From: Haliotis cracherodii
Taxonomy: Eukaryota
Assembly: GCF_022045235.1 (NCBI RefSeq)
Contig: NW_027266341.1
Coordinates: 56,234,001-56,298,000 of the forward strand
Direction of reading: 5' to 3'
Length of the DNA: 64,000 nucleotides
Both the position numbers and the translations under genes were made by a program. Shown one piece after another: positions 26,723-59,429 of the stretch (position 1 is the stretch's first letter; the number at the start of each line of letters is the position of its first letter). The notes under the pieces were generated by a model that saw nothing but the letters and a program-made list of their open reading frames with translations, did no database searches and was not told where the DNA came from.

Positions 26723-27792
26723 TTAATAATGTCCAACGCCATGTCCAACGAAGAGGCCCTGTCCGCCGACAAGGCCATTACCACCATTAAGACCATGACC
26801 AGCGAAACCTTGTGCGCCACCAAGACCACGTCCTCCAAAACCTCCATATCCACTGAAAGCTCCATGTCCGCCTATTCCATGTCCGCCAACAAGACCACGT
26901 CCTCCAAAACCTCCAAATCCGCCTACTCCATGGCCACTGAAAGCCCCATGTCCGCCTACTCCATGTCCACCGACGAAGGGACCAGCAACTCCGACGCCAT
27001 GTCCGCCGACGAAGGGACCAGCAACTCCTAAGCCATGTCCGCCGACGAAGGAACCGATCCCCCCAAAGCTATGTCCGCCGAGAAAGGAACCAGCATGTCC
27101 AACGCCCTGCCCAAAACCATGTCCAGCGAAAGGTCCATGACCATTGCCGTAGCCGTAGTTGTTGTAGCCGTTGTAGCTGTAAGGGTAGTAGCCGTAACCA
27201 TTACCGCCGAGGCCTCCTAGGCCTCTGTTACCACGGAAACCAACCCCAAGGAGACCGTTTCCAGTCAGAGGAAATCCAGCATGTGCACATGCGCAAAATA
27301 CAGCGAGCAATGCTGCAATTGACTGCAAAAAAAAACAAAATAAGTGTCTCTTTTATCATATTATACACTTGTTATTTAAGAAAGTATTTAATGCCAAAGG
27401 GTGAAATAGTATTATTTCTTCATTCAAATGGAGATAATCAGTGAGTTGGGTTTAACGCCGTTCCTTTTGGCCCACATGATCTGTACAATTAAACTTTCAG
27501 AATTATCATGTTTTAGAAAAGTTATCAGATGTGTACATGTGAAGGAGAACTAAAATGTGTTCATTTAAACGATTGCATGTTTGGGACTTATAACAGCAAC
27601 AGTTAATGCATTGGTAAGGATAAAATGTGTCAATATGAAGAAGGATTGTGGAGGTTTTCATGAGGCGTTTTTCGGACATTTGAACATGAGTATATGGTCT
27701 AAGCAGAAAGTTCGGAGAGGTCCATTTCCACAATTGTGAAGCGCATTTATCTCGGACATTAGACTACCCAAATGCAAATACCGTACCTTCAT
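26723..27792 (-). CDS. Gene 4: secreted Gly/His/Phe-rich protein, ~201 aa; join(27792..27787,27322..26723)
   Basis: ctcaaccATGAAG|gtacgg. The polyT-gcag| acceptor is in frame and gives MKSIAALLAVFCACAHA-GFPL. GHGxGxAGPFVG repeats. TATATA at ~27869-27875. Confidence 0.88.
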
Positions 27793-30039
27793 GGTTGAGA
27801 TCAGAATCTGGCAATGTTCTTTGATGAGAAGCGAAGAAAGGTTTGAAGACTTGTTGAAACGAGCGCTCATATATAGACACAAATCACGAATAAATTATTG
27901 CTTTCCTTCAACCCTCTATTGTTATGTTAAATACAAAGTTACGGATAATAAATTTATTCATTTACGGTCAAACAGCAATAAACTATGATGAATATTCACA
28001 GCATTTCGCGAAGCTCAAAAGACTGTTCTTAATAGTTGACTTGATCTTGCATGAAACATGTATATGGAAGAAAAACTGATTAATATTAGAATTAATTTCC
28101 CTCACAGAGCTAGCTCTAGTTTCAAATCGCACATGTATATATGTATTAATGAGATTTGGAATTGAATGGATTTCTTTAGCTTCGAAATATTGTTAATACT
28201 AAATTTCATAAACGTTTGGTAATTTAAAACCAAATGACTTTAGAGCATGAATGCATGTTGTTTTTAATAACTATGTGCTCTTGGTGAATCAGGAAATCAA
28301 TGTGAGATACAACATGGCGTATAAGTTAAATGATGCAGTGGTTACAATATTATTTCTGTATATTGCAGTTATACATTTTCAATTGGTCATGAGATCATGC
28401 ATCAGACGCAGTAACATACTAAATCCATTTGAAAATAATGTGATTGTCATAGGAAAACGCAAGTAAGTGATTAAGTAGAGTTTTATGACGTCTCTGGTTA
28501 TAGCCCAGGAATTCCAGGACGTGACAGTAAAAAGTGTTCTCATATATTGTACCCACGTGGGTACCCGAGTCTTCTACACAGCGAGCGAATCTTAACATTA
28601 AATGTTACCTTAACGAGTTCATCAGTCAGCGGAATCGAATATTCAGTCTCTTGTATCTGACACAGTGTCGTTTTTATTTCCCCACAATATTAATGAATAA
28701 CCACATATATTCATCTAGTATCATTGTCATTGAATTTCTTGCTTTGATTGAATGGTATAGAGTGTTAAGCTGTGACAATGATGATTCGTGAGATTTTATA
28801 TTAAGAATTGATGGTGGTCAAGTTAAGAGACAGCTACAATATATATTATTAAGTAAAATACTCATTTAACCATATTCTAAATGAATATTCGTCCTCACCC
28901 CATCCCCGACACAACACACAAGCGCATACATGTACATATTAACGAGAATTTACTTTGGGTTTTGAAGTGAATATACGCTTTTATTCGCACAATATATCTG
29001 GTCCTTCATACTTGCTATGTACACAAAGGCAGATCGAAACTCAAAAGGTGAACTGTGTGTCCTTTTTTATATACATTGTACATGTGTGTATTTTAATCTA
29101 CGTATAAATGTGAGAGTACAGAGTACCAAAAAAACATGAATGCATTTTTGATAGATGTATACACCTAGTGAAGCAAATTAAAACTGGAAGAGGAAGCAAC
29201 CATTATTGACACTTTTATACAAAAAACCTGAATTTATTTTTACAAACAATATATAGAACCAATTGGAAAACAACTTATTTAACACATCCTTTATAACTAA
29301 CTCGTGTTCTCGGCGTACATATGTAATTACAACATTCAACGTGCAGACAAGACAGGGGGTTTGTAAGAGAATGATACAGTTCGACTTTCTATACCGGTTT
29401 TAGGATAATATTGTGATTTTATCTACATGGTTTTATACCAAACTTAAAGTACATGACTACCTACATGAGGTTTAGGGACGTTCCCTGTTTGTATCGGTGT
29501 TCGCGAACACCTGGTATCAGTTTCAGTGATCCATTCATATAACTTTCACGGCTATTTTGCCTTTCACGCTCATTGGAATCTGTTTCTGAAAATAATTGAG
29601 ACTGGTTGTTCTCTGGCGTTGTCATTGTAATTTACATCCTTTATCAACATCTGTGACCTATATGTAACAACATAAGATGGCTTCACCGGCTAAAGTGTGA
29701 GATTGAAAACAAATAAATAGCCGCATATCACCTCTGTCTGCCCAACAATGACGATACATTGTATCATGTCCTACTTGACAGTGACTGGCATTGTTGGTAA
29801 AGGAGATAGTATACAGTTGGAAAAGACGTCGACACAAGATGCTCAACCAAGTGAATAACATTGGTGTCACTACTTCAACACAATTTCTAACCTGATTATA
29901 ATCTGAAAATATATGAACAAAATCATGTTTTCTAGATGAAATATTTCCTTTTAAATACAGTTTATTTCATGACACAAAAACTACATTCACACACAGTTAC
30001 GATACAATGTATCTTGGTCCCAAGAGATGACCATATGAA

Positions 30040-30200
30040 TCGGACGGTAGGGATTCTTGACGTGGTTGATTGCGTGTCATCGTACCCCAAAGGCATAGAT
30101 CGTTGCTCACAATATCAGTCACTAGATTGTCAAATCCCGACTCGAATATTTTCAAGTCAATGTCATAATACGAGAATATTGCTATACAATAAACAACAAA
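30040..30200 (+). mobile_element. Repeat family D, decayed
   Basis: gtcatcgtacccca...atagatcgttgctca...tcactagattgtc...aatattgcta...aaacaacaaac. Confidence 0.55.
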
Positions 30201-30637
30201 CAACATTCTGTGTGTGAATAGACCTTTCAATGCTCTAAATTCAGTACATATGTTGTCCATGACATGGCTACAGAGTCATACCTTTCAATTATCAATATGA
30301 AAATTAAGGTGCTTCTTGAACCTATATATGAATAGTAACAATTGAGTATTCATCCCAGATACTGCTCTCTCTAAACTTTATTGCATTCCTGATCAAATAT
30401 TAATCAGACATTGCTTGTGATCATTACCTTTGGGTTCTAAAACCGCAGGGTGCTTTCATCTGTGAGAGGTCACAACCACCATCGCTGATTCATATTATCA
30501 TAACAAAAGGATACGGATGGCTGCTATTACTTTACTGTACAGGTGCTGTGTATATAAGAGTCATCGGGCTCAGCTGATCATCACACCATCTCGAGATTCG
30601 GGCTTCATAACAGCGAGCACCGTCCCAACACTCAACC

Positions 30638-31717
30638 ATGCAGGTAAGATATCTGATTTTGGCTGTCCATTGTTTCATGGGCCATTCTTCTAGGCTTGTA
30701 GGCGATGGTCTGCACAGTGTTCAGTGTTTTTTAGTCCCAGAAGTGGTATATTGTGTAAAACTCTTGGTGTTGGTATCAGTATTGCTGGAATATTTCTGAA
30801 CGCGGCCTAAACTTTCAATTTCGATGTCCTTATCCAAGTCAGTTCAATTCTGATAAATCCGTACACCTTTCATCACATATCTTATAACATCTTCAAAATA
30901 TGATTTTTTTTTACTTGTATGGGTTGATTTGATTGAAACAATACAATTTTTTCTTATTGAATTTATCTGCTATTAGAATCATCAATAGAATAAAACATTT
31001 ATTTTGATTCAGATCGTTGCCGTTTTGCTCGCCGCTCTTTGCGCATGTGCTCATGCTGGCTTTCCTCTGAATGGTCATGGTCTCCTTGGAGGCGGTTTCC
31101 AAGGTAACGGTTTCGGTTTCGGAAGAGGCCTCGGTTCTGGTCACGGACGCTATACCTACAGCTACAAAGGCTACAACAACTACGGCAACGGCAATGGCCA
31201 CGGGCCTTTCGCTGGCCATGGCTTCGGAAACGGTGTTGGCCATGCTGGTTCCTTCGTTGGTGGACATGGATTTGGAAATGCCGGTCCCTTTATCGGCGGA
31301 CGTGGTTTTGGACATGGAGTTGGTCATGCTGGTCCCTTCGTCGGCGGACATGGTTTCGGAGGAGCTGGCTCAATCTTCGGCAGACAGGGTTTCGGAGCGT
31401 CTGGTGCCTTCGTCGGTGGTCATGGCTTTGGTCACACTGGTCCCTTCGTCGGCGGACATGGATTCGGAGGGGCTGGCTCAATCTTCGGCAGACAGGGTTT
31501 CGGAGAGTTTGGTCCCTTCGTCGGTAGACATGGCTTAGGAGGGTCTGGGTCAATCCTTGGCGGACATGGGGTAGCTGGACACGGAGCTTTCGGGGGCCTG
31601 GGAGGACATAGTCTTTTTGGAGGTTTTGGAGGGCGTGGTCTTATTGGTGGTCATGGCTTTGCCGGTCTCTTTGGAGGACAGGGGTCCTCCTTTGGGCACG
31701 GCATTGGTCACGAATGA
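30638..31717 (+). CDS. Gene 5: paralogue of gene 4, ~236 aa; join(30638..30643,31013..31717)
   Basis: TATATAA at 30551; ctcaaccATGCAG|gtaaga. The attcag| acceptor at 31012 is in frame and gives MQIVAVLLAALCACAHA-GFPL. AATAAA at 31741. Head-to-head with gene 4. Confidence 0.92.
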
Positions 31718-31796
31718 AGTGTTATGGGTTGATCTTTGTAAATAAAAAAAAATATGATGTCATATATGAGCACTTTCTAGTTTTTCATCTTCCCGA

Positions 31797-35500: not shown

Positions 35501-36304
35501 AATAGATGATGGAAAATAAAACAAAAAAAATCTAAAATCTAAAAACACTCTGAAGTGAAAGTGAAACAATATATGAAGTGCTGAATTTTGTCATAGTAAC
35601 ATCTTCGTGAAATTATGCATACGAGTTAGAATTTCTCTGCGGATTGGCAAAATCAAAACAAAGGAATTTGGCCAAGAAGTTTGACTAAAGCTTCGTGTAT
35701 TGCGATGATCTGATATCTTTCAATAATGGACATAGCCAATTCCACCCTGAACTAGAAAAGAGATCATTAAAACTGACCTATCTGTTTCATATTATGTCTA
35801 TGCATAACGATTTCAGAATAACAAAAAGTAACTATCCCCAAGACTGTATGACAATAGGGATCACTTTAACTTTCCCTTTAGGCCGAGCTACAGCCCCGCA
35901 GCCCCAGCCTAAATTGGTGTTTATATTTTACAACTTTTGACGTACAATCAAACCTACTCTGTCTACAAAGTTTTCACAGAAAGTCATACAACTCTTGCTC
36001 AAACGTTGTCACACCATTCAATGCCTTACTTAACCTTTCAGAAAGTTTGATGGTAGACATGTGAAGGACATGTCCAAATTTGACGTATCAGGAACAAAAA
36101 TGATATCTGAATAATGATGCAATTGCCTATTCTGACTTTTTTGCCTGTCGTGTTTTTTTCCTATCTTTGCATGTGTTTGTGACGGGGTGCCACCGGTGGG
36201 GCAGGATGTGCTCACCTCTTCGCGAACACTTGGTATCGTCTCTATATTGCGATTCATAAACGCAATTATCCTCATGATGTAGTCAGAATCGTACGATCGA
36301 CTTT

Positions 36305-36836
36305 GCTTTTGACAGGGATTTCCCATGCTTATGGACAGGGATTCCTCATGCTTATGGGCAGGGTTTTCTCATGCTTATGGACAGGGATTCCTCATGCTAA
36401 TGGACAGGGATTTCTAATGCTTATGGACAGGAATTCCTCATGCTTATGGACAGGAATTCCTCATGCTTATGGACAGGGTTTTCTCATGCATGCTTATGGA
36501 CAGGGTTTTCTCATGCTAATGGGCAGGGTTTTCTCATGCTAATGGGCAGGGTTTTCTCATGCATGCTTATGGACAGGGTTTTCTCATGCATGCTTATGGA
36601 CAGGGTTTTCTCATGCTAATGGGCAGGGTTTTCTCATGCATGCTTATGGACAGGGTTTTCTCATGCATGCTTATGGACAGGGTTTTCTCATGCATGCTTA
36701 CGGACAGGGTTTTCTCATGCATGCTAATGGGCAGGGTTTTCTCATGCATGCTAATGGACAGGGATTTCTAATGCTAATGGACAGGGTTTTCTCATGCTTA
36801 TGGACAGGGATTTATCATGCTTATGGACAGGGTTTT
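36305..36836. repeat. Minisatellite, 23-bp unit atgcttatggacagggttttctc with a 27-bp (+atgc) variant
   Basis: About 20 tandem copies directly visible. Confidence 0.95.
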
Positions 36837-37416
36837 GTCCCTGTTATTTACCCTATCGTGATATTTCTAGCGTCACTGGGTTTATCTGCAAAGATGTAGT
36901 TATTAAACTGGTGGCTTGTTCAGAAAAGTAATTCCACTGTAGTCCACAAGTTCGCATGTTCCTTCGGATAAACAAGAACAAACAACCTCACTAAATAAGA
37001 CTACCAGCATTTCGACATTTCATCGTATCGTTATTCCAATTGTGTTTGCTAAAACGGTAACAGGATGCAGTCGAAAAGATTTGACGAATAAGAACGTACA
37101 TTTTGTGTTATTGTTTTAAGTGTGTTATTAGACAAGCCACGGATATCGCCGCAAAACATATTTGTGTTTTGTGGCAACATGTTAGGCTTCCTCGATATTT
37201 GACATGTGACGTGGTCAGTGGTCATGTATCATGTATCGCTATAGCTACCTTTGACAGATAAATAGTACTACATCATATATCATAAGGTGTTTATTGTCTC
37301 ATAAACAGATGAACAAATACAATGTAGTATAAACACATTCATACATCAGGCATCACAAACGACTTTGGTTACGGTGATTAAGACGAAGGGACTACACCTT
37401 ATGCAATAAAGGCATG

Positions 37417-39309
37417 TTAATAAACGCCGTGGCCAGCAACTCCATGTCTGACGAAAGGTCCATGTCCAGCAATGAAACCACGATTTCCGTTAATTCCATT
37501 CCCCACGAAAGGACCATGTCCAGCAACACCATGTCCACCAAAGGAACCAACATGGCCGACGAAAGGTCCATGTCCTACAAGACCAATTCCATGCCCGCTG
37601 ACGAAGCTGCCAGGTGCACCCAATACCTTGCCGTAACCGTAGTTGTTGTAGGGGTTGTAGCCGTAACCGTGTCCCTTACCAGCAACGCCGTGTCCAGCAA
37701 CAAAAGGACCATTTCCTACAAAGGAACCAACCCCTGAGAAGGTTCCGTGTCCTACAAGGCCAGCTCCATGTCCGGCAACATTGGCAACGCCTTTCCCGTA
37801 TCCATAGTTGTTGTAAGGGTTGTAACCGTAGCCGTAGCCATGTCCTGTACCAGCAATACCGTGTCCTGCAACACCGTGACCAGCAATAGAAGGACCATGT
37901 CCTGCGAAGGAGCCAACGTGGCCGACAAAAGGTCCGTGTCCGACAAGACCAGCTCCGTGCCCATAACCATAGTTACTGTTGTATGGGTTGTAGCCATAGC
38001 CTTTACCAGCAATGCCTCCATTGTTGAAGCCAACACCGAAAGATCCAACTCCAAGGAGTCCTTTCCCACGGAGGGGCACCTGGGCCAGGCCAGAGCATAC
38101 CAGCACGGACAACACAGCTACGACACACTAAAATTATAAAAAAAATAAAGAATAAGAATAATTATGTTAACACTATGTGTGTCGCACTCTTAAAACTTCA
38201 AGAATTACTTTCATCTTAATCAGCGTTCTTTTTCAGTGTGAGCTGATATTAATCATAAAAAGTTGATGCTCTAACATATTTTTCCAAATAGTTCCTAATA
38301 CAATATGTTTAACATGCATGTAAAATTAAGAAAAGACGGTTAATCCTATCCGGCATTTTTGTCTTTATTGGATGTTTACACTATAATTTCAAAAATAAAT
38401 ATTTTCATCATATCGGGATTTCTTTCGTTATTGTGAGTATATATGAAAAAGATGATGTTCAAACTGTTCAAATTGTCCCAGCTAGATGTCTAACATACGT
38501 TAAGTCAAAAGTATATTTCGTCATGATCGGCATTTCTTTCTCTATTGTGCGTACATATTATAACGTTATAATATTTAAATAATATTCATAATATTTATAT
38601 ATAATATTTAAATGGTTAAAGCGTTCGCTCGTCACGCCGAAGACCCGGGTTCGATTCCTGACATGGGTACAATGTGTGAAGTCGATTTCTGGTGTCCCCT
38701 GTCGTGATATTGCTGGAATATTGCTAAAACCATACTCTCACCCACTCTTCCAAATAATATCCAATATAACCAATACTATTTGAATAAACTTATAAACACC
38801 ATATTTCAGAACATTTAAACGGGTTTTCAAGGGAGCAAGATCTCCAAAACCGTTGTAAGAGAATACTCGTACCGTATATTGTAAATATAAACGTCATACA
38901 CCACAAGTATCTACACTTATCAACATAATAAAATCATGAATCGAGACGTAATTTTTTTAAATAGGTCAAACATAAAAACTAGGGCATCTACAATGGTGCA
39001 CCTACAATAATCGAAATAATAACAAACACGAAAGACAACAAAAGAAGACAACGGATAGGAGTAAGTGAGTGAGTGAGTAAGTATGGTTTTAAGCGGCTTT
39101 TAGCAATATTCCAGCAATATCACGGCGGGGGACACCATAAATGGGCTTCACACATTGTACCCATGTCGGAAATCGAACCCGGGTCTTCGGCGCGAAGAGC
39201 AAACGCTTTAACCACTTGGCTACCCAACCGCCCACCAATGGATAGGAAGGAGTGAACTTCGGATATTACAAAATTGGGTAATATACACTTTGTACGCCCT
39301 TACCTTCAT
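37417..39309 (-). CDS. Gene 6: secreted Gly/His/Tyr/Val-rich modular protein, ~238 aa; join(39309..39304,38127..37417)
   Basis: ATGAAG|gtaaag. The ttttag| acceptor is in frame and gives MKCVVAVLSVLVCSGLA-QVPL. GYGYNPYNNYG and GHGPFV modules. TATATAA at 39393-39387; AATAAA at 37295-37290. Confidence 0.9.
38610..38748 (+). mobile_element. SINE family A (5' truncated) in gene 6 intron
   Basis: tggttaaagcgttcgctcgtcacgccgaagacccgggttcgattc...gatattgctggaatattgctaaaaccatactc. Confidence 0.88.
39058..39235 (-). mobile_element. SINE family A in gene 6 intron
   Basis: Reverse match to the family consensus, flanked by ggatagga direct repeats. Confidence 0.88.
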
Positions 39310-39386: not shown

Positions 39387-39424
39387 TTATATACATGTAC
39401 AGGTTACATATATGGTCACGTGAC
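39387..39424 (-). promoter_or_regulatory. Gene 6 promoter: palindromic GTCACGTGAC E-box plus TATA
   Basis: GTCACGTGAC at 39415-39424, about 20 nt upstream of TATATAAG. Confidence 0.7.
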
Positions 39425-40747: not shown

Positions 40748-40906
40748 TGGGGGATGGCCTCGCGGTGAAAGCGTCGGCTCGTCACGCTGAAGACCCGGGT
40801 TCGATTCTTCACATGGTTACAATATGTGACCCCCATTTCTGGTGTCCTTCGCCTTGATATTGCTGGAATATTGCTAAGAGCGGCGTAAAACCATACTCAT
40901 TCACTC
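40748..40906 (+). mobile_element. SINE family A
   Basis: ctcgtcacgctgaagacccgggttcgattc...gatattgctggaatattgctaagagcggcgtaaaaccatactc. Confidence 0.88.
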
Positions 40907-41057: not shown

Positions 41058-41517
41058 GTATGTGGTTGTGCGTACGCGTGTGCGTGTGTGTGTGCGTGTG
41101 TGTGCGTGAGTTGAAATGGATGTGGGTGTGGGTATTGGTTGAGATTGGGTGTGGGTGTAGGTGTGGGTTGAGATTGCGTGTGGGTGTGGGTGTGGGTGTG
41201 GGTGTGGGTGTGGGTGTGGGTGTGGGTGTGGGTGTGAGTTTGGGTGTGGGTGCTGGTTTAGATTTGGTGTTGGTTTTGGTGAGGGTGGGTTGAGATTGGA
41301 TGTGGGTGTGGGTGTGGGTGTGGGTGTGGGTGTGGGTGCGTGTTGAGATTGGATGTGTGTGTAGGTGTGTGTTGAGATTGGGTGTGGGTGTTCGTGTGGG
41401 TGTGTGTAGGTGTGTGTTGAGATTGGGTGTGAGTGTTGGTGTGCTTGTTGGTGTGGGTTGAGATTCGATGTGGGTGTGGGTGTGGGTGTGGGTGTGGGTG
41501 TGGGTGTGGGTGTGTGT
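41058..41517. repeat. G-rich satellite: (GGGTGT)n runs punctuated by GTTGAGATT
   Basis: Directly visible. Confidence 0.95.
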
Positions 41518-41890: not shown

Positions 41891-41920
41891 ATCACGTGAC
41901 CATGTTGAAGGCGTATATAT
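41891..41920 (+). promoter_or_regulatory. Gene 7 promoter: TCACGTGACC E-box plus TATATA
   Basis: CACGTG at 41893-41898; TATATA at 41914-41919. Confidence 0.7.
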
Positions 41921-41980: not shown

Positions 41981-43588
41981 ATGAAGGTAAGCAGCCATTG
42001 TCCACGTTAGCCTCATCCTAGTGAGCATCACAGAGACATTAACTGTGAATGGACATTGTGAAATGAATGGGTGTGTGCTGCGAGTCGAACTTTTCTCTGC
42101 CATTGAATACTTTTCTTGAGAAGTACATTTTTCTCTCGGCCCAAATTTAAAAAAAAAAGAGAGAGAGACTTTTACGTACATTTACGTTTATATGATTTAC
42201 TTCGTTATAACAGAAGCTTGTTTTTTATGTGTATCCGGTACACATACACATCACAACACAGGTATTTTAATTAACTAGATTGTTCGTTTTAGGTTTGTTT
42301 GTTTATGATGTCTTGGCTGTATGTTCGTGCAGTATGTGTATGGTGGTATGTAGTCAGGTTGAATATATCATATAGAATGGAAAAGCTGTAACGCAGGCTA
42401 TTAAAAACGACTTCTTCATATCTTTAATGTTCATGAAGAAATTATTCTTTTTTATATATTCTTCCAGTTTACTAAAAGTAATTTTGTTTATTAATGAACA
42501 ATCCACGAGTTGCAACAGTCATAAAGACAAACAAAGACACCAAAAACAAAGCTAGAAATATATAAATGTTTTCTTTTTTTGCTTCTCTGTACGTACAATT
42601 ACAGTAAACAAAATTTATTTAAATGTCGTCGTCGCTGTGTTGTCCGTGCTGGTCTAGATACGCTCTTTCCTGGCCCAATATGTAAACATATCGCATCAGG
42701 AACTATTTGGAAAATTATGTTTGAACATTAACTTTTTATATTTTTATAACTATTTAATACAAGCTCATACTAAAAAGGAATGCTGATTAAGATGAAATCA
42801 TTTCTTGAAGTTTTAAGAATGTGACACATAAAGTGTAAACATAACTATTCTTAATCTTTAGTTTTGTATAATTTTAGTGTGTCGTCGCTGTGTTGTCCGT
42901 GCTGGTATGCTCTGGCCTGGCCCAGGTACCCCTCCGTGGGAAAGGACTCCTTGGAGTTGGATCTTTCGGTGTTGGCTTCAACAATGGAGGCATTGCTGGT
43001 AAAGGCTATGGCTACAACCCATACAACAGTAACTATGGTTATGGGCACGGAGCTGGTCTTGTCGGACACGGACCTTTTGTCGGCCACGGTGGCTCCTTCG
43101 CAGGACATGGTCCTTCTATTGCTGGTCACGGTGTTGCAGGACACGGTATTGCTGGTACAGGACATGGCTACGGCTACGGTTACAACCCTTACAACAACTA
43201 TGGATACGGGAAAGGCGTTGGCAATGTCGCCGGACATGGAGTTGGCCTTGTAGGACACGGAGCTTTCTCAGGGGTTGGTTCCTTTGTAGGAAACGGTCCT
43301 TTTGTTGCTGGACACGGCGTTGCTGGTAAGGGACACGGTTACGGCTACAACCCCTACAACAACTACGGTTACGGCAAGGTATTGGGTGCACCTGGTAACT
43401 TCGTCAGCGGTCATGGATCTGGTCTTGTAGGACATGGACCTTTCGTCGGTCACGTTGGTTCCTTTGCCGGACATGGTGTTGCTGGACATGGTCCTTTCGT
43501 GGGGAATGGAATAAACGGAAATCGTGGTTTCATTGCTGGACATGGACCTTTCGTCGGACATGGAGTTGCTGGCCACGGCGTTTATTAA
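41981..43588 (+). CDS. Gene 7: near-identical paralogue of gene 6, ~238 aa; join(41981..41986,42878..43588)
   Basis: ATGAAG|gtaagc. The ttttag| acceptor at 42877 is in frame. 8 aa differences from gene 6. AATAAA at 43710. Confidence 0.92.
42625..42677 (+). pseudogene. Relic start of a gene-9/10-type second exon inside the gene 7 intron
   Basis: 31 nt identical to 58842-58872 (gtcgtcgtcgctgtgttgtccgtgctggtct). Preceded by aaat instead of AG, and the frame closes at TAG. Confidence 0.8.
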
Positions 43589-43769
43589 CATGCTTTTATT
43601 GCACAAGGTGTTGCTATGCCGCTACTTTTGTAAATTAGATAGAGTCGTATGCTTGTGGTGACTGGTGTATGAATGTGTTTTATACTGTGTTCATCAGTTT
43701 ATGAGTTCGAATAAACACCATAAGTAACAACAGTTTATTGTTATTGTTCAGTATTACTGGGGTCATTAC

Positions 43770-44026
43770 ACAGCGCCGCGATTTGCTGTGCAGAGTTGCA
43801 TCCCTTTGGCATGCAAGAAACCTATGATTCTGGGTTCGAATCCTGGTTCGCCCCTGTTATGTTTCTAGGTTTGTCAGCACCATAGCCGAACTCGTGGGTT
43901 TCACCGAAGTGGTAAACGTCCGAGACCTGCATCACTTCGGGCTTACCTCCCACATTTAGCTGACACGCCATGATATAACTGGAATAATGTTCAAAGCGGT
44001 GTTAAACCCAACTCACTCACTCACTC
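43770..44026 (+). mobile_element. SINE family B, near full length
   Basis: B box ggttcgaatcc, central gggtttcaccgaagtggtaaacgtc, 3' tgttcaaagcggtgttaaaccc, (tcac)n tail. Confidence 0.88.
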
Positions 44027-44619
44027 TGTATTACTGTAAATGATCACTGAACAGTTGATACCATTTAACCAGTGTAGACGAGTAACACAGTAACTACAGT
44101 AACAGTAACCAAATCTCTAGAAGACAAGTTTTGTTTATTTTAGCGACGATACCCATGGCCATTAAAACATCACACTTTGAAACAGTAAAAGAAAGATTAT
44201 TTTATTTAACAGCGATGTCCAAGGTCAATATAATAGCAGACGTTATAAAAATAAGAACAATTCAACTCTCCGTCAGACACTTTGATTAGAACTTTATTGT
44301 TTAATGAAATATCCAAGGTTTAAATGTGATTTGCGTTTAGGTGCTTTCTTCCTTACCACCGAAGAAAAGAGGACATTTTGAAAAAATCTTAAAAATGTTT
44401 GTCTGTCGCTATCCACTTTACTTAAAATGCCGTTATTCACTTTGAAATCTTACCATTGAAGTTATAATGTAAAACAATTAAACGCCCAAGAGCATTTTGG
44501 CGGTGCATATTGGCGGACGTCTCGTATGCGTTGATACATCTTATCATTTTGATATTGATTACTCCAACATTTATTCCTATCACCGCCACTACCATCAACA
44601 TCAACATCACCATCACCTT

Positions 44620-44747
44620 NNNNNNNNNNNNNNNNNNNNNNNNNNNNNNNNNNNNNNNNNNNNNNNNNNNNNNNNNNNNNNNNNNNNNNNNNNNNNNNNN
44701 NNNNNNNNNNNNNNNNNNNNNNNNNNNNNNNNNNNNNNNNNNNNNNN
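44620..44747. other. Assembly gap (128 N), preceded by a (CAT/CAC)n repeat
   Basis: Run of N. Confidence 1.
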
Positions 44748-45309: not shown

Positions 45310-45475
45310 TGGGGCCCTGGGGTAGCCTAGTGGTTAAAGCGTTCGCTCGTCACGCCGAAGACCCGGGTTCGATTCCCCACATGGGTACAATGTGTGAAGC
45401 CCATTTTAGGGTGTCCCCCGCCGTGATTTTGCTGGAATATTGCTAAAAGCGGCGTAAAATCATACTCACGCACAC
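45310..45475 (+). mobile_element. SINE family A, young-looking copy
   Basis: ggtagcctagtggttaaagcgttcgctcgtcacgccgaagacccgggttcgattccccacatgggtacaatgtgtgaagccc... Confidence 0.92.
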
Positions 45476-45825
45476 AGTACGTTTTACTCTGTATAACCCG
45501 ACATCTGAGTATTTTACTACAAACATTACAATAATGCTAAATTCTATAACACTATATAAGGAAGTACTGTTTTGAAAATGGATTCTGTCAAACCAGTTGT
45601 CATACTTGTCCCAATATTAATGTACATTTGTTTCTAGTATTTCGTAAATATCTACAAAGATGACAACAATGATGTTATGACCAGTGAATGTACTGTAGAC
45701 GGTCAGCTTTCAGATATATGCAAACTCATGAGCCATGAGCTGGACTAAATGTACTACAGTTCATCTGAATCCCAACTTCAATACTTTAAACTATAATATA
45801 TTAAGCAAACTTGACATGTATGTTG

Positions 45826-46069: not shown

Positions 46070-46500
46070 TTATAAGGTCCAATAGTAATAATTATAACGT
46101 CGAGCGACCTTATTGATCAAAACCAGCAACTCATTGTCCCATAATTGGTCCCTGTCCTGCAACACCACCTCCGTGTCTGATGCCACGTCTAGCATCGTCG
46201 TCTCCAGCAATGCAGGGCCAGCATGTACGATGAAAGGTCTGCGTTCAAAAACACCAACTTGATGGTGGTTAGCAAAGGTACTTGGACCATCGACGTGGCC
46301 TTGGGTAGCAAGACCATGCAGGGGTCCGCCACCAATGAAAGGCCCGTGGCTTGCAGCACCAGCTCCATTTCCAGCAATAATGTATTTGCTGGGTCCTTTA
46401 TAGTAGCCTTCATAGTAGCCTTTATAGATGAAGGTCATTCCAGCAATATCGCTCTGCTAGAAATCAATCCCGGAAGAACCGAGAAGAACCACCAAAACTA
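46070..46500 (-). pseudogene. Gene 8: decayed paralogue of the gene 6/7/9/10 family
   Basis: Minus strand reads VLLGSSGIDF*QSDIAG (cf. LLG..SFGVGFNNGGIAG) and IAGNGAGAASHGPFIG. After a frameshift it reads IAGDDDARRGIRHGGGVAGQGPIMGQ*VAGF, then ..RYNYYY (cf. GPFVGHGVAGS..SPYYYH). No intact signal-peptide exon start. Confidence 0.8.
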
Positions 46501-46714
46501 CCCGACCGCCCCCCACTGTAAGAGCATACTCGTACCGTATATTGAAAATATACTCGTCGTACACCACAAGTATCTACAATTATCGAAATAATACATCATC
46601 GAAACGTAAATTTATTAAATAAGTCAAGCATAAAGACTAGGGCATCTACAATGGTGCATCTTCAATAATCGAAATAATAACAAACACGAAAGACAACAAA
46701 AGGACACAACGGAT

Positions 46715-46889
46715 GGGAGTGAGTGAGTGAGTATGGTTTTACGCCGCTTTTAGCAATATTCCAGCAATATCACTGCTGGGGACACCAGAAATGAGCTTCA
46801 CACATTGTACCCACGTAGGGAATCGAACCCGGGTCTTCGGCGTGACGAGCAAAGTGATTTTTTTAACGTTCTAACCACTAGGCTACCCA
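46715..46889 (-). mobile_element. SINE family A, same insertion as 39058-39235 copied by segmental duplication
   Basis: Same orientation and the same ~200-bp left flank as the gene 6 intron copy. Confidence 0.88.
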
Positions 46890-46945: not shown

Positions 46946-46947
<2 letters not shown>

Positions 46948-47021: not shown

Positions 47022-47023
<2 letters not shown>

Positions 47024-47205: not shown

Positions 47206-47441
47206 GTGAGTGAGTGAGTGAGAGTTGGTGTTTACGTCACTTTGGCACAGTATTGCAGTTATATTACGACGTCTAAGCTTAGTGTAGTAGGAACGCCTGA
47301 AGTGTGGTTTGGTGAAACCCACGACCACGAGTAAGGTGCTGACTAACCTTGAAATATAATCGAAGCGAACCGGGATTCGAACCCACAATCATAGGTGTCT
47401 GGCGCGACCACGGGACGCAACTCTGCACAGCGCATTGCGGC
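47206..47441 (-). mobile_element. SINE family B
   Basis: ggtgaaacccacga...ggattcgaacccacaatcatagg...gggacgcaactctgcacagc; (gagt)n tail. Confidence 0.8.
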
Positions 47442-50924: not shown

Positions 50925-50958
50925 AACCACGTGACCCCGTTGAAAGTAAATATATATG
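50925..50958 (+). promoter_or_regulatory. Gene 9 promoter: CACGTGACC plus TATATA
   Basis: CACGTG at 50928-50933; TATATA at 50951. Confidence 0.7.
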
Positions 50959-51027
50959 TAGAGAACACCATGGTGGTAGTATCAGTCACCTCAAGACTGG
51001 TGTATCATCTAGTCAAGTATGTTCATC

Positions 51028-52224
51028 ATGAAGGTAAGCTACCTATACAACCTTGCCAGCTTCTGGTGGTGAAATGTCAATCTTTGTTTACTTCATTTCT
51101 CAATGAAATGTCACGTCCAACCTTGGCATCCTTTTCATAAACAGATGTATTTTCAATTGTCCCTAGAACATCTTGAAACATTGAACTATGGATATTGCAA
51201 ATCGACTGTGGTTGATGAAGTTACCTAATACGCAAAATGAAAAAGAAAGGTTGTGCTTTATCTGTAATGTACAGGTGAACATTAGCATGGAATGGCACAT
51301 AGTCTTACCAATGAGAAAATAGAGGTGGTGAGCGTTTTCAATAACTAAGTACGTGGCCGATAACTCTTCGATCACTTCTCGACATGAAATTAATAAAATC
51401 CCTATTTATTCTGTATATTTTACTGCATGATTCTCACAAAGAGTATTTTAACAATTTGTCTGCAGAGGAGTTCTTAAATGTTTTCCTTTCTGAATGATGA
51501 TATATGCCCATGTTCGAATGCTTTAATCAAATAAAACCATAAGAACTACAGCCAAGGCAATATTGTCATTCTATCATGAATTCATTCGGACATCGGTGAA
51601 ATAGTTATCCCCGTATTTTTATTTCAAATTTCAAATGAACACGATTTGAAGAAAATTCTTTATTTTCATGACCGTGTTATTCACATGATTTTCTCTTTTC
51701 AGGTCGTCATTACTGTCTTATCCGCGCTGGTCTGCTCTGTCCTGGCCCAGGTGCCTCTCTATGGTAAAGGGCTCACCGGTACTTACGGTGTAGGTTTCAA
51801 CAATGGACGTATTGCTAGCGGAGGCTATGGCTACAACCCATACAACAACTATGGCTATAACGGATACGGTTACGGTAACGGTAAAGGCGTTGGCAACGTT
51901 GTTGGTGTTGCTGGTACAGGCAATGGCTACAACACATACAACAACAACTATGGTTACAACGGCTACGGTAAAGGCGTTGGCAAATTCGTTGCTGGACATG
52001 GAGCTGGTCTTGCAGGACAAGGACCTTTCGTTGGGCACGGTCCTTTCGTTGCTGGACACGGACCTTTCGTTACTGGACAGGGCCTTTACGAACATGCTGG
52101 CACCATTTCTGGGCATGGACCCTTCGTTGTCGGACACGGTGTTTATGGACATGGTGGACCCTTTGTTGGTCATGGAGTTGCTGGGTCATTCGTCGGCAAA
52201 GCAAGTCCCTATTACTACCATTAG
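51028..52224 (+). CDS. Gene 9: secreted Gly/Tyr/Asn/His-rich protein, ~175 aa; join(51028..51033,51703..52224)
   Basis: ATGAAG|gtaagc. The ttttcag| acceptor at 51702 is in frame and gives MKVVITVLSALVCSVLA-QVPL; the protein ends KASPYYYH. AATAAA at 52297. Confidence 0.92.
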
Positions 52225-54369: not shown

Positions 54370-55441
54370 ATATTAAGGTTTCTACTTATTACAGCTACCA
54401 GGGTTTAATATTTTAAAACCGTTTGTGTTGGACTTAATACCCTGGTGAATAAGGTTAATAAAGCTCTCTTTGCATTGAAGCACATAAGAATTCGTTTAAA
54501 GAATATTCCTATCTCAGCCTTATTTAAGATTTTTGATATGCAAATAAAGTAAAGCCCAATATTGTTGTACTCGTCAGAAATGTGGGGTGTTAACAAAATG
54601 CCAGCAGTTGAAAAATTTCATGTGGAATTTTGTAAGTTTTTTTGGGGGTGTTGGAAATCATGTAACAAGTGCAGCAGTATTAGGAGATAGATATGGATTG
54701 TATGTTAATCACCATAAAAGGTGTATTAAATATTGATTTTATATTGACATTTATTATATTTACCTAATAGTAGATACCCAAAGCAATGTTATATACTATT
54801 GAAGTCTCTAGATGATGCTGGTCGCATTACATGGGTCACATATGTTAAAAAATGTTATTTGATTATGAATTGGGATTTGTTTGGATTTTGCAAGACGTTG
54901 GTGATTGTAAAATATTTATTGATATCTTTGTACAAAGACTAAAAGATTGTTATCAACAAGAATGGTATAGTACAGTTTGTGAATGTCGTAAATTAATATT
55001 CTTTAAAGAATTTAAATTACTTGTGTACGTTGAATTCTATTTAACAAATTTATCTAGCCAACGTTATAGACATATGTTTTTCTGTTACGATCTGGTGAGC
55101 TATCCTTGATGAAAAATGTTGGTAGACGCTGTGGTGTGGAATATTCTCAAAGACTTTATAATTATTGTGACATGCAAGCTGTTGAAGATGAGTTCCATTT
55201 CATGTAAGGATGTCCATATTATAAGCATTTAAGAAACAGATATTTCACACAATATTATTGTCATAACACATGTTTAAGAAAATTGTACTCTCTAGTGTCT
55301 AGATGTTGATGTTGATTAATTGTGCAAGGTTTATATACAACTCTCTATTTGTCAGACAAAACGCACATCTGTCTCAAAATTGACTTTTGTAATTTATTGT
55401 ACGTGGGCCAATGGCCTTTCTTCTGAAATAAACTTTGAAAC
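54370..55441 (+). mobile_element. 5'-truncated decayed LINE (post-RT C-terminal ORF2 region; CR1/L2-group-like)
   Basis: Fragments FKIFDMQI..PILLYSSEMWG, EKFHVEFCK, RYPKQCY, GFVW..QDVG..F.QRLKDCYQQEW, VEDEFHF...CP; 3' end gggccaatggcc...gaaataaactttgaaac. Clade assignment is from motif recall only. Confidence 0.75.
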
Positions 55442-57917
55442 ATTGGTTTCCCAATTTTATTCCATGTCAAATACACTCATCTACAAATACAAATACCAAC
55501 TCATCACGAGGTCCAAATAACTTTGATATCAAAAAAAGGAATTAGCAGATGTTTACCAATGACTTCTAAATATAGTTATAGGAGCGTCACTGGTGTGTTG
55601 TTGATAGTGGTTGACAAATCTTCCAACATGTTGGTATGACGTGCATGGAGACGTGCATATTTCTCCGTATCCTTTTAAACGTATATCATCACTGACTTAC
55701 TGTGATTCATAAGCATCTTCTCATGAATTAGTCGGAATAGGAGAATAGACTGCTTTTAGCAGAGATTCCGTATGAATAAGGACATTGTTTTGTTTCCGAT
55801 TTACAGGTTCTGAAACATCTTAGAAAGATTAGAAATAAAATAAGAATACAACAAAAAAACAGGAAAAAATCTTACATCCACGTGATTTTTTTATCTACAC
55901 TGTTTAATTGCTTTACACATGTGAACGTATTATTTGAGAAAAAAACACGTACAAAGATGTACAAATTTCGTGAACAATGATGTTAAATAACAGCTACATT
56001 AATTGGCTGGGTTAAAAGTATAAATAATTACGTAAAGAACGTAATCAAATATCATACATATAGGTGTCGAAGGTGATTTGACTTGTCTGTTGGGATGAAG
56101 TGAGGGCGCGGTGGGGGCGTGGGGCGTTATCACACATTAACACAATCACATCACATTGAATACTGGAACAAAGCGCATTTACGAGTCACAGGGTGTTACA
56201 AATATTTATGGTTAAGCATCAGTTTTATAGAGAGTAATCATAGGCCTTAATATAATTACTCCCTGAATATAAATGATTCACGAGCATACACTGGCAATAT
56301 AAAATCACGGTTTTATGTAATGTGGTCACCACAAAATGACGTCTAACAATTCATTGTAATTATATTTTCCGATATCCTAGTAGCGGAGGGAACTGAAGAA
56401 GCATTAAATGTTTCCATTGCCCAACAAGGCCTCGGTAATGTCAAAACCCAGCAAGACTCCATACACATGCATCTCCATCTGTTGCATTTAATTGTGTACT
56501 GCCCTGCCATTCATGGATTCTTACTCGTATAACATAGATCAATGAACTCAACAGGAGAAAGGTAAAGGCTATTAGACTGTAAATTACGGCACTGAATTTA
56601 AAGTAGATTTGAGGCCGTTAAACTAGTACTCTGGTAAGTTCAAATGCATATTAATAACACGATCAAAGGCAACCCAACTTCAAATGGATCACAAGGCCCG
56701 GGTCGTATTGTGATTGCTAAATGTACTGATTGTTTCCTTCAATATCTAAAATATAATACACTTAATACAATACTAAGGTGTTATCTATGACCGGTTTTGA
56801 ACCGATAAAATTAAACGTGAGAGAAATTAAGGTTCAATATTGTGACATTTTTAAATCGGCACATAAACAGTAAAAAATTCTATCAATCTTTACACACTGT
56901 TTAAGACATACATGTACATGTACTGGATACAAACTCGAAATGTTATATCCTTTGAATACACATGCAACTGTGCAGCAGCCATGTGTTGTGTGAGGGTTTT
57001 CGTAAACGAAAATTCTTGCAATATAGTTAAAAGAATAATTTAAATAATAATAATATGTATATGTAATGTATCAATTTAGTTCTAATTTTATTTATTTAGA
57101 ATTCGAAACGCTGCGATTCGGGTGCAACAGTTAAGCCCGCCGCTACGCCTCATCAGCCTCCCATGGGGATAGATTTAACGCTTTAAGTACGACGGTGAAA
57201 TTCTATTGCCGTAATAATTGCATCCGCCTCATTTCCTGTTTCCATAATCTCAGTAGGGATGTGAATCGCTTTATTGTATTCATTATTTATGTCAGTCCTT
57301 TATTGACAAGAAGCATTTTTTTAAAAACGTAAAACATTGACAGTAGCGATTAATGAGTTCATAGCTAAACCGAAAATAGAATAGAACAAGCAAACAAACA
57401 AACAAACAAAGATTTATAGTTACAAATATAATTTCACAAAATCACTGTTTACACCACTGCATTCACATTTTCATTTTAAAATATATCAGTAGACCAAATG
57501 TATTTACGTTTAATTGAACAAACACTGAAAATGAAAACTGTTTTGTCTACGATTGCAATTTGACACAAATAGTCCTTTACTTGCATCACATAAGTCAATG
57601 TACCTTAAACAAACAAACAAGCAAACATTGATAACACCGCTCACATGACTTCCATAGTCAGCGGGTTGCAGTGGCGTGGAATGTGTTTTATCCTTAAAGT
57701 TTGTAGATACTCGCCAAATTGTTCACTTCCTGTGACTGATTTTAAAGTTGGTAATGGTCAAGTGACAATGCTATAATCCGAGAACGTTATTCCATAACTC
57801 TTATTTCAGTCATGGAATCCTCATTTTGCTTTCATTCATCAATTTATTGACTTGACATTTCCGATTGATCAAATTAATTTTAATTTACGTAACTGTTCAT
57901 ACGGTCGTTAAATGATA

Positions 57918-57994
57918 GGGTCACGTGGTGCACGTATAACGGGATAATCGTGTGGGCAGCGACCATGTGACCATGCCAAAGGTACGTATATATG
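57918..57994 (+). promoter_or_regulatory. Gene 10 promoter: GTCACGTG, CATGTGACC and TATATA
   Basis: CACGTG at 57922-57927; CATGTG at 57964-57969; TATATA at 57987-57992. Confidence 0.7.
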
Positions 57995-58063
57995 GAGGCG
58001 ACATCAGAGTGGTGGTATCTGTCATCTCAACATTGGTGTATCTTCTAGTCAAGTCTGTTCATC

Positions 58064-59429
58064 ATGAAGGTAATATGAACGACATGCAATTGTTTTCATC
58101 ACAATTTGAAACTTTAAGCATTTGGGCGGAGTTTGGTTAATTCTGTAACTGACCGTTTTTAGTGTTGGGGAAAGTATGAGATTGATGCATTGTACCGTCA
58201 CACATGTACCAACTTTTAGTTCTGCGCTGAAATCTCGTTAAGTCGATCTTTATTTACTTTATTTCTCCTTCCAATGTCATATCAAACATTGGCATTCTTG
58301 TTTTTAGTTGTCCCAAGAACGACTTGTCATATAAGACTTCGGATAATGCAAATGCGATTGACGAAATTAAATACCTGAAAAGGCTGTACAATGTTGTGTT
58401 TTATCTTAATGTGAATTATGAACTGACATTAACTTGGAAAAGCTCATAGATATACCACTGAGAAAATAGTCATGAAGTTGGTGGCCGATACCTCTTTGAT
58501 TACATCGTGATACGAAATTAATAGAATTCTTATTTATACTTTGTATTTCATTGCACGATTTTCACAAAGACTTGGATTATTGTTAACCTAGGCGTTCTTA
58601 AATTGTTATGATTGGGAATTATTTATTAATATGCCCAGGTTCGATTTTTTAAAATCAAATACAACCACAAGAACTGCATTCAAGGCAAGTTTATTTTAAA
58701 TTATCTACCCATCAACCATGGTTTGTTTCGGACATCGGTGAAATATTATTTCATTTCAAACATCACGTGAACACTATTTTAAGAATATGCTGTATTTTCA
58801 TGACCGAGTTATTTCAGTTTCAACTGATTCTTTGTTTCTAGGTCGTCGTCGCTGTGTTGTCCGTGCTGGTCTGCTGTGCCCTTGCCCAGGTGTCCCACCT
58901 TGGCAAAGGAGCTGGTACTTTCGGTGTAGGTTTCAACAATGGACATATTGCTGGTACAGGCTATGGCTACAACCCATACAATAATTATGGCTATAACGGC
59001 TACGATTACGGTAAAGGCGTTGGCAATGTTGGCGTTGCTGGTACAGGCTATGGCTACAACCCATACAACAACAACTATGGTTACAACGGCTACGGCTCCG
59101 GTAAAGGCGTTGGTAACATTGGTGCTGGAAAAGCTTATGGAATCAACTATAGCCCCTACAACTACAACAACAATGGCTACGGTAAAGGCGTTGGCAAATT
59201 CGTTGTTGGACATGGAGCTGGTCTTGCAGGACACGGACCTTTCGTTGGACATGGATCCTTCGTTGCTGGACAGGGTTTGTACGGTCACCATGGCGCCATT
59301 GCTGGACATGGACCTATCGTTGGACACGGAGATGCCGGACACGGTGTTTATGGACATGGTGGACCCTTTGTTGGTCATGGAGTTGCTGGTTCAGTCGTCG
59401 GCAAAGCCAGTCCCTATTACTACCACTAG
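58064..59429 (+). CDS. Gene 10: paralogue of gene 9, ~197 aa; join(58064..58069,58842..59429)
   Basis: ATGAAG|gtaata. The ttctag| acceptor at 58841 is in frame and gives MKVVVAVLSVLVCCALA-QVSH; the protein ends KASPYYYH. AATAAA at 59506. Confidence 0.92.

What the first reader, a model, noticed from the sequence alone, without database searches (positions are those of the whole stretch)
26723..59429. GHGPF/GHGVY His-Gly block copolymers resembling squid-beak coacervating proteins and suckerins
Seen: genes 4-7, 9 and 10 are built from GHG(P/V/A/F/I)x motifs, including the literal pentapeptide GHGVY in genes 6, 7, 9 and 10, alternating with Tyr/Asn blocks (GYGYNPYNNYGYG). Genes 3, 4, 6 and 7 contain no Asp or Glu; genes 5, 9 and 10 have only 1-2. 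Established: Dosidicus gigas beak His-rich proteins phase-separate through GHGxY repeats in a pH-dependent way, and Nereis jaw Nvjp-1 hardens via His-Zn. Inference: a convergent or homologous pH-triggered coacervate or metal/catechol-crosslinked matrix family, with Phe often replacing Tyr.
Basis: partly seen in the sequence, partly recalled or inferred. Interest (0 to 1): 0.75.

Follow-up and report, generated by a model that had tools for sequence, protein, structure and literature searches.

The report
Abalone Gly-His-Gly matrix protein gene cluster
An abalone genome holds a tandem cluster of genes for predicted secreted proteins built from Gly-His-Gly repeats and Tyr/Asn blocks; they likely condense in seawater and help harden an unmineralised structure, probably by convergence on squid-beak chemistry, but neither their tissue nor their condensation has been tested.

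Summary
The window is abalone (gene 2 equals a Haliotis cracherodii record). Six intact two-exon genes (4-7, 9, 10) encode predicted secreted, disordered, basic proteins; 73 of their 93 His sit in GHG, above all 2000 shuffles per gene. Separate His and Tyr/Asn blocks are supported in genes 6, 7, 9, 10 but not 4, 5. Paralog dN/dS is 0.23-0.33. Real relatives were found only in Haliotis.

They fail the membership tests for squid beak proteins (0-1 GHGxY per protein, Ala 4-7%, His 6-9%, pI 9.2-10.6), suckerins and Nvjp-1. Beak proteins were not found even in octopus, so convergence is likelier than homology. Calculated charge falls 3-5-fold from pH 5 to 8.1, so a pH switch is plausible but untested. 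New here: a conserved E-box next to the TATA of genes 6, 7, 9, 10, and no family motif in the H. laevigata shell-proteome files. Tissue is unknown; jaw/radula or periostracum are likeliest. Verdict: an uncharacterised abalone family of a known kind of material protein.

The parts
26723..27797 (-). gene 4: exon 1 ATG at 27792 (2 codons), 464-nt intron, exon 2 27322-26723; Gly 43%, 11 GHG, 12-residue repeat; g4/g5 subfamily
   Evidence: exon 1 assigned from ATG+GT and a TATA at -83, not from RNA
30638..31717 (+). gene 5: exon 1 ATG 30638, 369-nt intron, exon 2 31013-31717; Gly 42%, Phe 13%, 13 GHG; divergent pair with gene 4
37417..39309 (-). gene 6: exon 1 ATG 39309, 1176-nt intron, exon 2 38127-37417; 16 GHG, three Tyr/Asn blocks alternating with His blocks
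41981..43588 (+). gene 7: exon 1 ATG 41981, 891-nt intron, exon 2 42878-43588; 18 GHG of 19 His; inverted copy of gene 6, exon 2 97% identical
46070..46456 (-). gene 8: degenerate member, likely pseudogene; in-frame stop just upstream, no GHG, 12 Asp/Glu, weak likeness to g6/g9, preceded by an 87% copy of gene 6 intron sequence
   Evidence: tblastn E 0.003-0.008
51028..52224 (+). gene 9: exon 1 ATG 51028, 669-nt intron, exon 2 51703-52224; Tyr/Asn N-half, His C-half, conserved Tyr-rich C-terminus
58064..59429 (+). gene 10: exon 1 ATG 58064, 772-nt intron, exon 2 58842-59429; tandem paralog of gene 9; type expanded in H. asinina
39415..39424 (.). palindromic E-box (CACGTGAC on both strands) 113 nt upstream of the gene 6 ATG
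41893..41900 (+). E-box CACGTGAC just 5' of the gene 7 TATA
50928..50935 (+). E-box CACGTGAC just 5' of the gene 9 TATA
57920..57971 (.). gene 10 promoter: CACGTGAC on the - strand (57920-57927) and the variant CATGTGAC (57964) at the position aligned with the other three
1831..4829 (+). gene 1 (linked neighbour): about 800-aa Ala/Gln/Asn/Lys-rich predicted secreted protein, same exon plan, conserved across gastropods
11779..15850 (+). gene 2 (linked neighbour): paralog of gene 1; 864 aa, identical to XP_071088974.1 of Haliotis cracherodii

Best explanation
These six intact, tandemly duplicated abalone genes encode predicted secreted, disordered Gly/His/aromatic proteins that likely serve as filler of a hard, unmineralised extracellular structure, likely condensing when their histidines lose charge in seawater and then being cross-linked. 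Steps: (1) shown in sequence: two-exon genes, hydrophobic N-terminus, low-complexity mature chain, almost no acidic residues, purifying selection. (2) Calculated: net charge per residue 0.085-0.115 at pH 5 and 0.02-0.03 at pH 8.1, so the chains would repel each other in an acidic secretory granule and much less after release into salty alkaline water. (3) Inferred: Phe of the GHGPF units and the Tyr/Asn blocks act as stickers and drive condensation to a dense liquid or gel that can wet a chitin or protein scaffold. (4) Inferred: tyrosinase or peroxidase oxidises Tyr or small catechols, which His and Lys capture, curing the material; the shared E-box could co-activate the genes with tyrosinase through MITF. 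My odds for the site: jaw, radula or other buccal cuticle 0.4; periostracum or mantle/epidermal cuticle 0.25; larval operculum or shell 0.1; foot adhesive 0.1; other 0.15. The likeness to squid beak proteins is most likely convergent.
For: Motif enrichment and block structure. Mean hydropathy 2.1-3.1 of the N-terminal 15 residues of exon 2. GT-AG introns in 9 of 9 modelled genes, a TATA-like box upstream of all 9, AATAAA within 250 nt of the stop in 8 of 9. dN/dS 0.23-0.33 for four paralog pairs. No predicted fold, no Pfam or PDB match. Cluster kept in other abalones: H. asinina members carry accessions XP_067660468-487 with the gene 1 orthologue at 488, all on one 101,978,182-nt contig; the H. 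rufescens member and gene 2 orthologue share a 59,995,430-nt contig; an H. rubra model fuses two tandem copies. Seven accessions of a 168-aa g10-type protein in H. asinina fit high-dose structural secretion. Gly+His enrichment with aromatics is the shared signature of hard protein materials (PMC9999432 section 3.4.5). No family motif in 27 of 27 supplementary files of the H. laevigata nacre/prism proteome, whose search databases came from mantle, haemolymph and tentacle, while a control motif was found in 2 files. All 4 distinct CACGTGAC sites of the 64 kb lie in the promoters of g6, g7, g9, g10; MITF activates both tyrosinases in H. iris.
Against: No tissue or expression data were obtained. 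Nothing shows condensation, DOPA or cross-linking. His is only 6-9%, below beak proteins (10-16%) and worm jaw proteins (27-40%). The proteins stay net positive at pH 8.1, whereas HBP-1 separates near its pI of about 6. Tyr-to-Ala loss abolishes phase separation of the beak peptide and the His-Tyr hydrogen bond is the proposed trigger; GHGPF cannot form that bond within the motif. His is replaced by Asn or Gln in some units (GNGPF, GQGPF). A slug jaw gave a negative catechol test, so gastropod jaws need not be quinone-tanned. In H. iris tyrosinase is mainly a mantle gene, which points away from the buccal mass if the E-box is a MITF site. The E-box is shared by descent and fits other bHLH factors (recalled). 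No chitin-binding or oxidase gene was recognised in the window.
Confidence: 0.55

Rival explanations
1. The proteins are shematrin-like framework or periostracal proteins of the mantle, stiffened by beta-sheet packing and tyrosine cross-links, with His incidental and no pH-gated liquid phase.
For: Basic Gly/Tyr-rich secreted repeats with aromatic C-termini resemble shematrins and Has-tsfgr1. The H. rufescens relative carries the automatic name 'shematrin-like protein 2'. Tyrosinase and MITF are mantle genes in H. iris. Periostracum was not a layer analysed in the shell proteome (abstract).
Against: No family motif in the nacre or prismatic proteome files although each protein gives 3-5 tryptic peptides of 7-35 residues. 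A silk-like protein screen of the small H. asinina transcriptome gave two other proteins only. No shematrin appeared among the hits. His is kept in a fixed GHG context across four abalone species.
Confidence: 0.22
2. They are DOPA-bearing adhesive or coating proteins of the foot or settling larva, working like mussel foot proteins.
For: Mussel foot proteins are Gly-rich, basic (pI mostly above 8), disordered and delivered as coacervates; these proteins share pI 9.2-10.6, near absence of acids and 8-13% Tyr in g6-g10.
Against: The Tyr-Lys dipeptides typical of MFP-3/5 are nearly absent (1 in g5, 0 in the other five). The chains are Val/Phe-rich and hydrophobic. No mussel protein was hit.
Confidence: 0.1
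3. The family is a true homologue of squid beak His-rich proteins, inherited from a common molluscan jaw protein.
For: Shared GHG-hydrophobic-aromatic unit (squid GHGPY/GHGLY/GHGVY type; here GHGPF and GHGVY). Both families form clusters of about ten genes.
Against: No cephalopod or non-Haliotis mollusc hit. Not found in Octopus. Different architecture and composition. Short Gly/His motifs recur in unrelated jaw and cuticle proteins. Low-complexity sequences can lose detectable homology, so this is not excluded.
Confidence: 0.06
4. They are cationic Gly/His-rich antimicrobial or defence proteins secreted into mucus or haemolymph.
For: Secreted, basic, tandem multigene family with lineage-specific expansion; MITF has immune roles in bivalves (search listing).
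Against: Purifying rather than diversifying selection between paralogs. No family motif among the haemolymph/tentacle reading frames confirmed in that shell study (file 11), a weak test because only shell-detected frames are listed. Low Lys/Arg (4-8 per chain) and no Cys.
Confidence: 0.07

Closest known systems
Dosidicus gigas histidine-rich beak proteins (DgHBP-1, -2, -3) and the Doryteuthis pealeii cluster
   Same: Secreted, disordered, Gly-rich; His almost always flanked by Gly, often followed by a hydrophobic and an aromatic residue; 15-21 kDa; clustered multigene family.
   Different: Phe replaces Tyr at the fifth place (20 GHGxF against 5 GHGxY); His spaced mostly 5-12 apart in 6-, 7- and 12-residue units rather than tandem pentapeptides; no GAGFA; Ala 4-7%; pI 9.2-10.6 against 6.0-6.5; Tyr/Asn blocks, not described for HBPs in the sections read; no detectable sequence homology.
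Suckerins (squid sucker ring teeth)
   Same: Basic Gly/Tyr/His-rich block copolymers in gene clusters.
   Different: No Ala/Thr/His module (at most 4-5 of 12 residues), no Pro-delimited M1/M2 repeat, GGY/GGL/GHY at most 1 each per chain; His sits in the Gly-rich block.
Nereis Nvjp-1 and Glycera MTP jaw proteins
   Same: Gly plus His richness; GGH occurs 7 times each in g4 and g5.
   Different: His 6-9% against 27% and 40%; Nvjp-1 has 15.5% Asp+Glu, here 0-2 residues. Dense His-metal networks are less likely.
Shematrins and Has-tsfgr1 (mantle Gly-rich proteins)
   Same: Secreted Gly/Tyr repeats with a short aromatic C-terminal motif.
   Different: tsfgr1 is built from a Gly/Tyr/Leu heptad with no His repeat described; no shematrin hit; family motifs absent from the H. 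laevigata shell proteome files.
Mussel foot proteins MFP-3/-5
   Same: Basic, Gly-rich, Tyr-rich, disordered, acid-poor. A likeness of the Tyr/Asn block to MFP-3 slow variants is recalled, not tested.
   Different: Larger, repetitive, His-Gly blocks, almost no Tyr-Lys pairs; no homology found.

Membership tests
Squid His-rich beak proteins (HBP) | Two or more GHGxY pentapeptides, in tandem arrays | tested here: not met
   0 in g4, 1 each in g5, g6, g7, g9, g10; longest run of adjacent GHGxx units 2-3; rule from PMC6884462
Squid His-rich beak proteins (HBP) | Gly 20-35%, Ala 16-19%, His 10-16% | tested here: not met
   Gly 30-43%, Ala 4-7%, His 6-9% against PMC9999432 section 3.4.3
Squid His-rich beak proteins (HBP) | Non-repetitive Ala/His-rich N-domain; GAGFA motif (optional) | tested here: not met
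   N-halves are Tyr/Asn- or Gly-rich, no Ala run of 3, GAGFA 0 in all six
Squid His-rich beak proteins (HBP) | pI near 6 | tested here: not met
   pI 9.2-10.6 against 6.03-6.5
Squid His-rich beak proteins (HBP) | His flanked by Gly on both sides, followed by a hydrophobic residue | tested here: met
   73 of 93 His in GHG; 58 of 73 followed by P/V/A/F/I
Squid His-rich beak proteins (HBP) | Sequence homology to DgHBPs | tested here: inconclusive
   No cephalopod hit; but low-complexity queries are down-weighted, only 8000 candidates were scored, and no HBP sequence was at hand for a direct alignment (they are figures in the supplement)
Squid His-rich beak proteins (HBP) | pH-triggered self-coacervation; buccal-mass expression; His-catechol cross-links | not testable with these tools
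   Only net charge was calculated; runs carried no tissue labels
Suckerins | [Pro-M1-Pro-M2]n with an Ala/Thr/His-rich M1 of 10-15 residues | tested here: not met
   At most 4-5 of 12 residues Ala/Thr/His in any window
Suckerins | M2 with many GGY, GGL, GHY tripeptides | tested here: not met
   0-1 of each per protein
Nvjp-1-type jaw proteins | His about 27%, Gly 36%, Asp+Glu about 15% | tested here: not met
   His 6-9%, Asp+Glu 0-2 residues
Nvjp-1-type jaw proteins | Zn-induced hardening | not testable with these tools
   Needs a binding assay
Shematrins | C-terminal motif ending in Tyr | tested here: inconclusive
   g4, g6, g7 end in Tyr; g9, g10 end in three Tyr plus His; g5 ends in Glu. 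The basic residues of the shematrin tail are recalled, not read from a call, and are absent here
Shematrins | Presence in the calcified shell matrix | tested here: not met
   Five motifs absent from 27 of 27 supplementary files of the H. laevigata shell proteome, control motif found; a different species, spreadsheet cells cut at 400 characters, cross-linked proteins may escape

The most novel reading that the evidence does not exclude
The cluster is the abalone counterpart of the squid beak hardener: a gastropod independently evolved GHG-x-aromatic coacervating proteins, put them in a ten-gene array like the squid's, fused them to Tyr/Asn sticker blocks, and switches them on with tyrosinase through a MITF E-box to infiltrate and tan its jaw or radula, beside a gastropod-wide 800-residue helical partner (genes 1-2) that forms the scaffold.
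Probability: 0.2. Interest if true: 0.72.

Novelty: new variant of a known kind. Interest (0 to 1): 0.45.

Why it matters
The proteins that harden unmineralised gastropod mouthparts and cuticles did not turn up in my searches. This cluster gives named candidates, a promoter element and simple assays. If they coacervate, they show that the GHG-x-aromatic unit arose twice in molluscs and works with Phe and a net positive charge. That would extend the design rules of beak-derived peptides now used as delivery carriers (search listing); cationic natural variants could suit nucleic-acid cargo. If they do not, this is one more lineage-specific low-complexity secreted family.

Tried and rejected
- No whole genome was held for this window, so the cluster's ends and neighbours beyond 64 kb are unseen.
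- Pfam: 0 families for 9 proteins and for the 11 aligned members. PDB sequence search: 0.
- Gene 5 as query: no hit at E up to 10 among 8000 scored candidates, so g4/g5 orthologues were not found.
- Profile search of 1.84 billion proteins: 7 hits, 5 Haliotis; 2 (E about 1e-5) are unrelated repeat proteins of DUF11/TIGR01451 type and were dropped.
- ESM Atlas: gene 7 gave only arthropod cuticle clusters at 0.77-0.80, below the tool's 0.9 level; gene 2 gave nothing usable.
- AlphaFold: gene 7 pLDDT 33.6, gene 1 pLDDT 44.0; both too poor for a fold search, which was not run. No complex job was sent.
- Expression: no RNA holder listed. Four coded runs laid on gene 7 covered exon 2 (relatives' contigs about 96-97% alike) but showed no joint across the intron and had no library labels: no evidence either way.
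- Earlier findings of this scan: nothing shown.
- Literature: no paper describing this family in searches. The motif search returned 8 papers, 7 listed, all unrelated by title. H. iris supplement tables gave one 'filaggrin-like' and one 'glycine-rich domain' row that I could not tie to these genes. The squid genome paper's supplement held only one small file, so HBP gene structure and synteny were not seen.
- Rejected: artefact or chance ORFs (splice signals, selection, orthologues); suckerin and Nvjp-1 membership; shell nacre/prism matrix as the main site.


Full report
WHAT IS THERE. Six-frame scanning found nine Gly-rich or GHG-bearing reading frames and a tenth, degenerate one. Nine units follow one plan: a TATA-like box 67-141 nt upstream, a first exon of two codons, a phase-0 GT-AG intron of 369-1477 nt, and a second exon with the rest of a hydrophobic leader and the mature chain; 8 of 9 have AATAAA within 250 nt of the stop. 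First exons and cleavage sites were assigned by eye from these signals; no signal-peptide predictor or spliced read confirms them. Gene 2 is letter for letter XP_071088974.1 of Haliotis cracherodii, so the window is abalone, most likely that species.

THE OBSERVATION. It holds. In genes 4-7, 9 and 10, 73 of 93 His are in GHG, against an expected share of 0.09-0.19, and each gene's count exceeds all 2000 shuffles. Block segregation of His from Tyr/Asn is supported in g6, g7, g9, g10 (0-1 of 500 shuffles) but not in g4 and g5 (29 and 116 of 500). Gene 3 has no GHG. Gene 8 has an in-frame stop upstream, 12 acidic residues and only weak likeness to g6/g9; I read it as a pseudogene.

EVOLUTION. Rough Nei-Gojobori dN/dS is 0.28 (g6/g7), 0.33 (g9/g10), 0.26 (g4/g5) and 0.23 (g7/g10); alignments of repeats make these approximate. 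g4/g5 form a separate, well-supported subfamily in a 14-row tree. A gene 7 search gave 5 hits, all Haliotis. An 11-sequence profile against 1.84 billion representatives gave 7 hits, 5 Haliotis and 2 unrelated repeat proteins that I dropped. Gene 5 found nothing at E up to 10. H. asinina members have accessions XP_067660468-487, plus XP_067661361, with the gene 1 orthologue at 488, all on a contig of one length; seven accessions are a 168-aa g10-type protein. This suggests a conserved cluster, but I saw accessions and contig lengths, not coordinates. The neighbours g1/g2 are older: relatives in Gigantopelta (58%), Batillaria (35%) and Littorina (32%), dN/dS 0.08, long helices at low confidence.

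A SHARED PROMOTER ELEMENT. CACGTGAC matches 5 times in the window (chance mean 1.21; 1 of 100 shuffles reached 5). These are 4 distinct sites, all 88-142 nt upstream of the ATG of g6, g7, g9 and g10. In the aligned promoters the element and the TATA are the main conserved islands, although the g6 promoter barely aligns with the others (scores 28-33 against shuffle maxima 26-32). The other five genes lack it. That it is an E-box for MITF/USF-type factors is recalled knowledge. In H. iris MITF activates both tyrosinases, which are mainly mantle genes (PMC13544226, passages). Co-regulation with tyrosinase is therefore an inference, and the four sites are not independent because the genes are paralogs.

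HOW IT LIKELY WORKS. AlphaFold gives no fold for gene 7 (pLDDT 33.6). With textbook pKa values (recalled), net charge falls from +13..+25 at pH 5 to +3.5..+7.4 at pH 8.1, a 3- to 5-fold drop; aromatics are 14-17%. A review of hard protein materials (PMC9999432 section 3.4.5, read whole) describes this logic: His keeps the chain soluble in acid, deprotonates in seawater, permits aromatic condensation and then adds to quinones. Ala-to-Phe changes favour separation and stiffer gels in a beak peptide (PMC10766971, passages). Against this, the beak mechanism needs two Tyr and a His-Tyr hydrogen bond (PMC6884462, parts 1-3 of 7); here Tyr lies mostly in separate blocks, so the contact would have to be between blocks or chains. 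The chains also remain cationic. I put secreted structural role at about 0.85, a pH-gated condensation step at about 0.6, and the whole chain of steps at 0.55.

WHERE. No tissue data were obtained. Five motifs of the cluster are absent from all 27 supplementary files of the H. laevigata shell proteome (448 proteins; databases from mantle, haemolymph and tentacle), while a control motif was found in two files (PMC6003135: abstract, passages and supplement searches). Each protein would give 3-5 tryptic peptides of usable length. Caveats: another species, truncated cells, cross-linking, and a database that may lack the transcripts. A silk-like protein screen of a small H. asinina transcriptome found two other proteins (PMC4944945 section 15). 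This argues against nacre or prisms and leaves unmineralised structures. Abalones have a very large radula (59 mm2 in H. tuberculata, the largest in PMC9079087, passages) and paired jaws (recalled). A slug jaw tested negative for catechols (PMC6685607, passages), and the MITF link would favour mantle or pigmented epidermis. Hence buccal hard parts 0.4, periostracum or epidermal cuticle 0.25.

COMPARISON WITH KNOWN FAMILIES. Beak proteins have Gly 20-35%, Ala 16-19%, His 10-16%, an Ala/His-rich N-domain and tandem GHGxY, pI 6.0-6.5 (PMC11931252, passages). The abalone proteins have Ala 4-7%, His 6-9%, 0-1 GHGxY, no GAGFA and pI 9.2-10.6. Beak proteins form a ten-gene buccal cluster in D. pealeii and were not found in Octopus (PMC9068888, passages), which favours convergence. 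Suckerin modules and Nvjp-1 composition are not met. Shematrin and tsfgr1 likeness is compositional (PMC2034539, passages), as is likeness to mussel foot proteins. A direct alignment with HBP sequences was not possible because no tool returned them. Passages of PMC9263180, PMC13425148, PMC10795318 and PMC5995198 held nothing on this family.

NOVELTY AND VERDICT. The databases give these proteins only automatic names, and none of my searches found a paper on them; subscription journals are largely outside that library. The family is new as a sequence family and in combining GHGPF units with Tyr/Asn blocks and a basic charge, but Gly/His-rich secreted matrix proteins have arisen many times. Interest 0.45.

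Noticed in passing
window 1831-4829 and 11779-15850 (+): Genes 1 and 2: about 800-aa predicted secreted Ala/Gln/Asn/Lys-rich pair with no Pfam match, conserved in Gigantopelta, Littorina and Batillaria, dN/dS 0.08, predicted long helices at low confidence; possibly a fibrous scaffold family of gastropods that deserves its own study.
   Followed up: partly
window 37283-38311 and 42683-43722: Genes 6 and 7 are inverted copies, 90% identical over 1050 nt around exon 2 (97% in the coding part), while their promoters barely align: gene conversion or an exon-2 duplication.
   Followed up: partly
window 42625-42680: A short remnant resembling the start of exon 2 lies inside the gene 7 intron (seen).
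   Followed up: no
window 46070-46853: Degenerate gene 8 sits behind an 87% copy of gene 6 intron sequence (38854-39203 versus 46517-46853).
   Followed up: partly
window 38610-38729, 39064-39233, 40751-40906, 45312-45476, 46717-46888, 61739-61910 and others: Many copies of a 150-170-nt interspersed repeat, 75-91% alike; it looks like a tRNA-derived SINE (recalled, not tested).
   Followed up: no
window 43773-44027: A second high-copy repeat just downstream of gene 7, with thousands of matching contigs in all four laid runs; copies at 18645-18870, 20875-21093 and 47208-47441.
   Followed up: no
window 36304-36836 and 41117-41514: A 23-nt minisatellite (about 22 copies) and a 6-nt TG-rich array (about 68 copies) flank genes 6 and 7.
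   Followed up: no
window 18884-19011 and 44620-44747: Two 128-nt runs of N; the second lies between genes 7 and 8, so the cluster may be incomplete there.
   Followed up: no
P0012 (H. rubra XP_046561801.1): The 638-aa annotation is two tandem family genes fused into one model, each with its own leader.
   Followed up: yes
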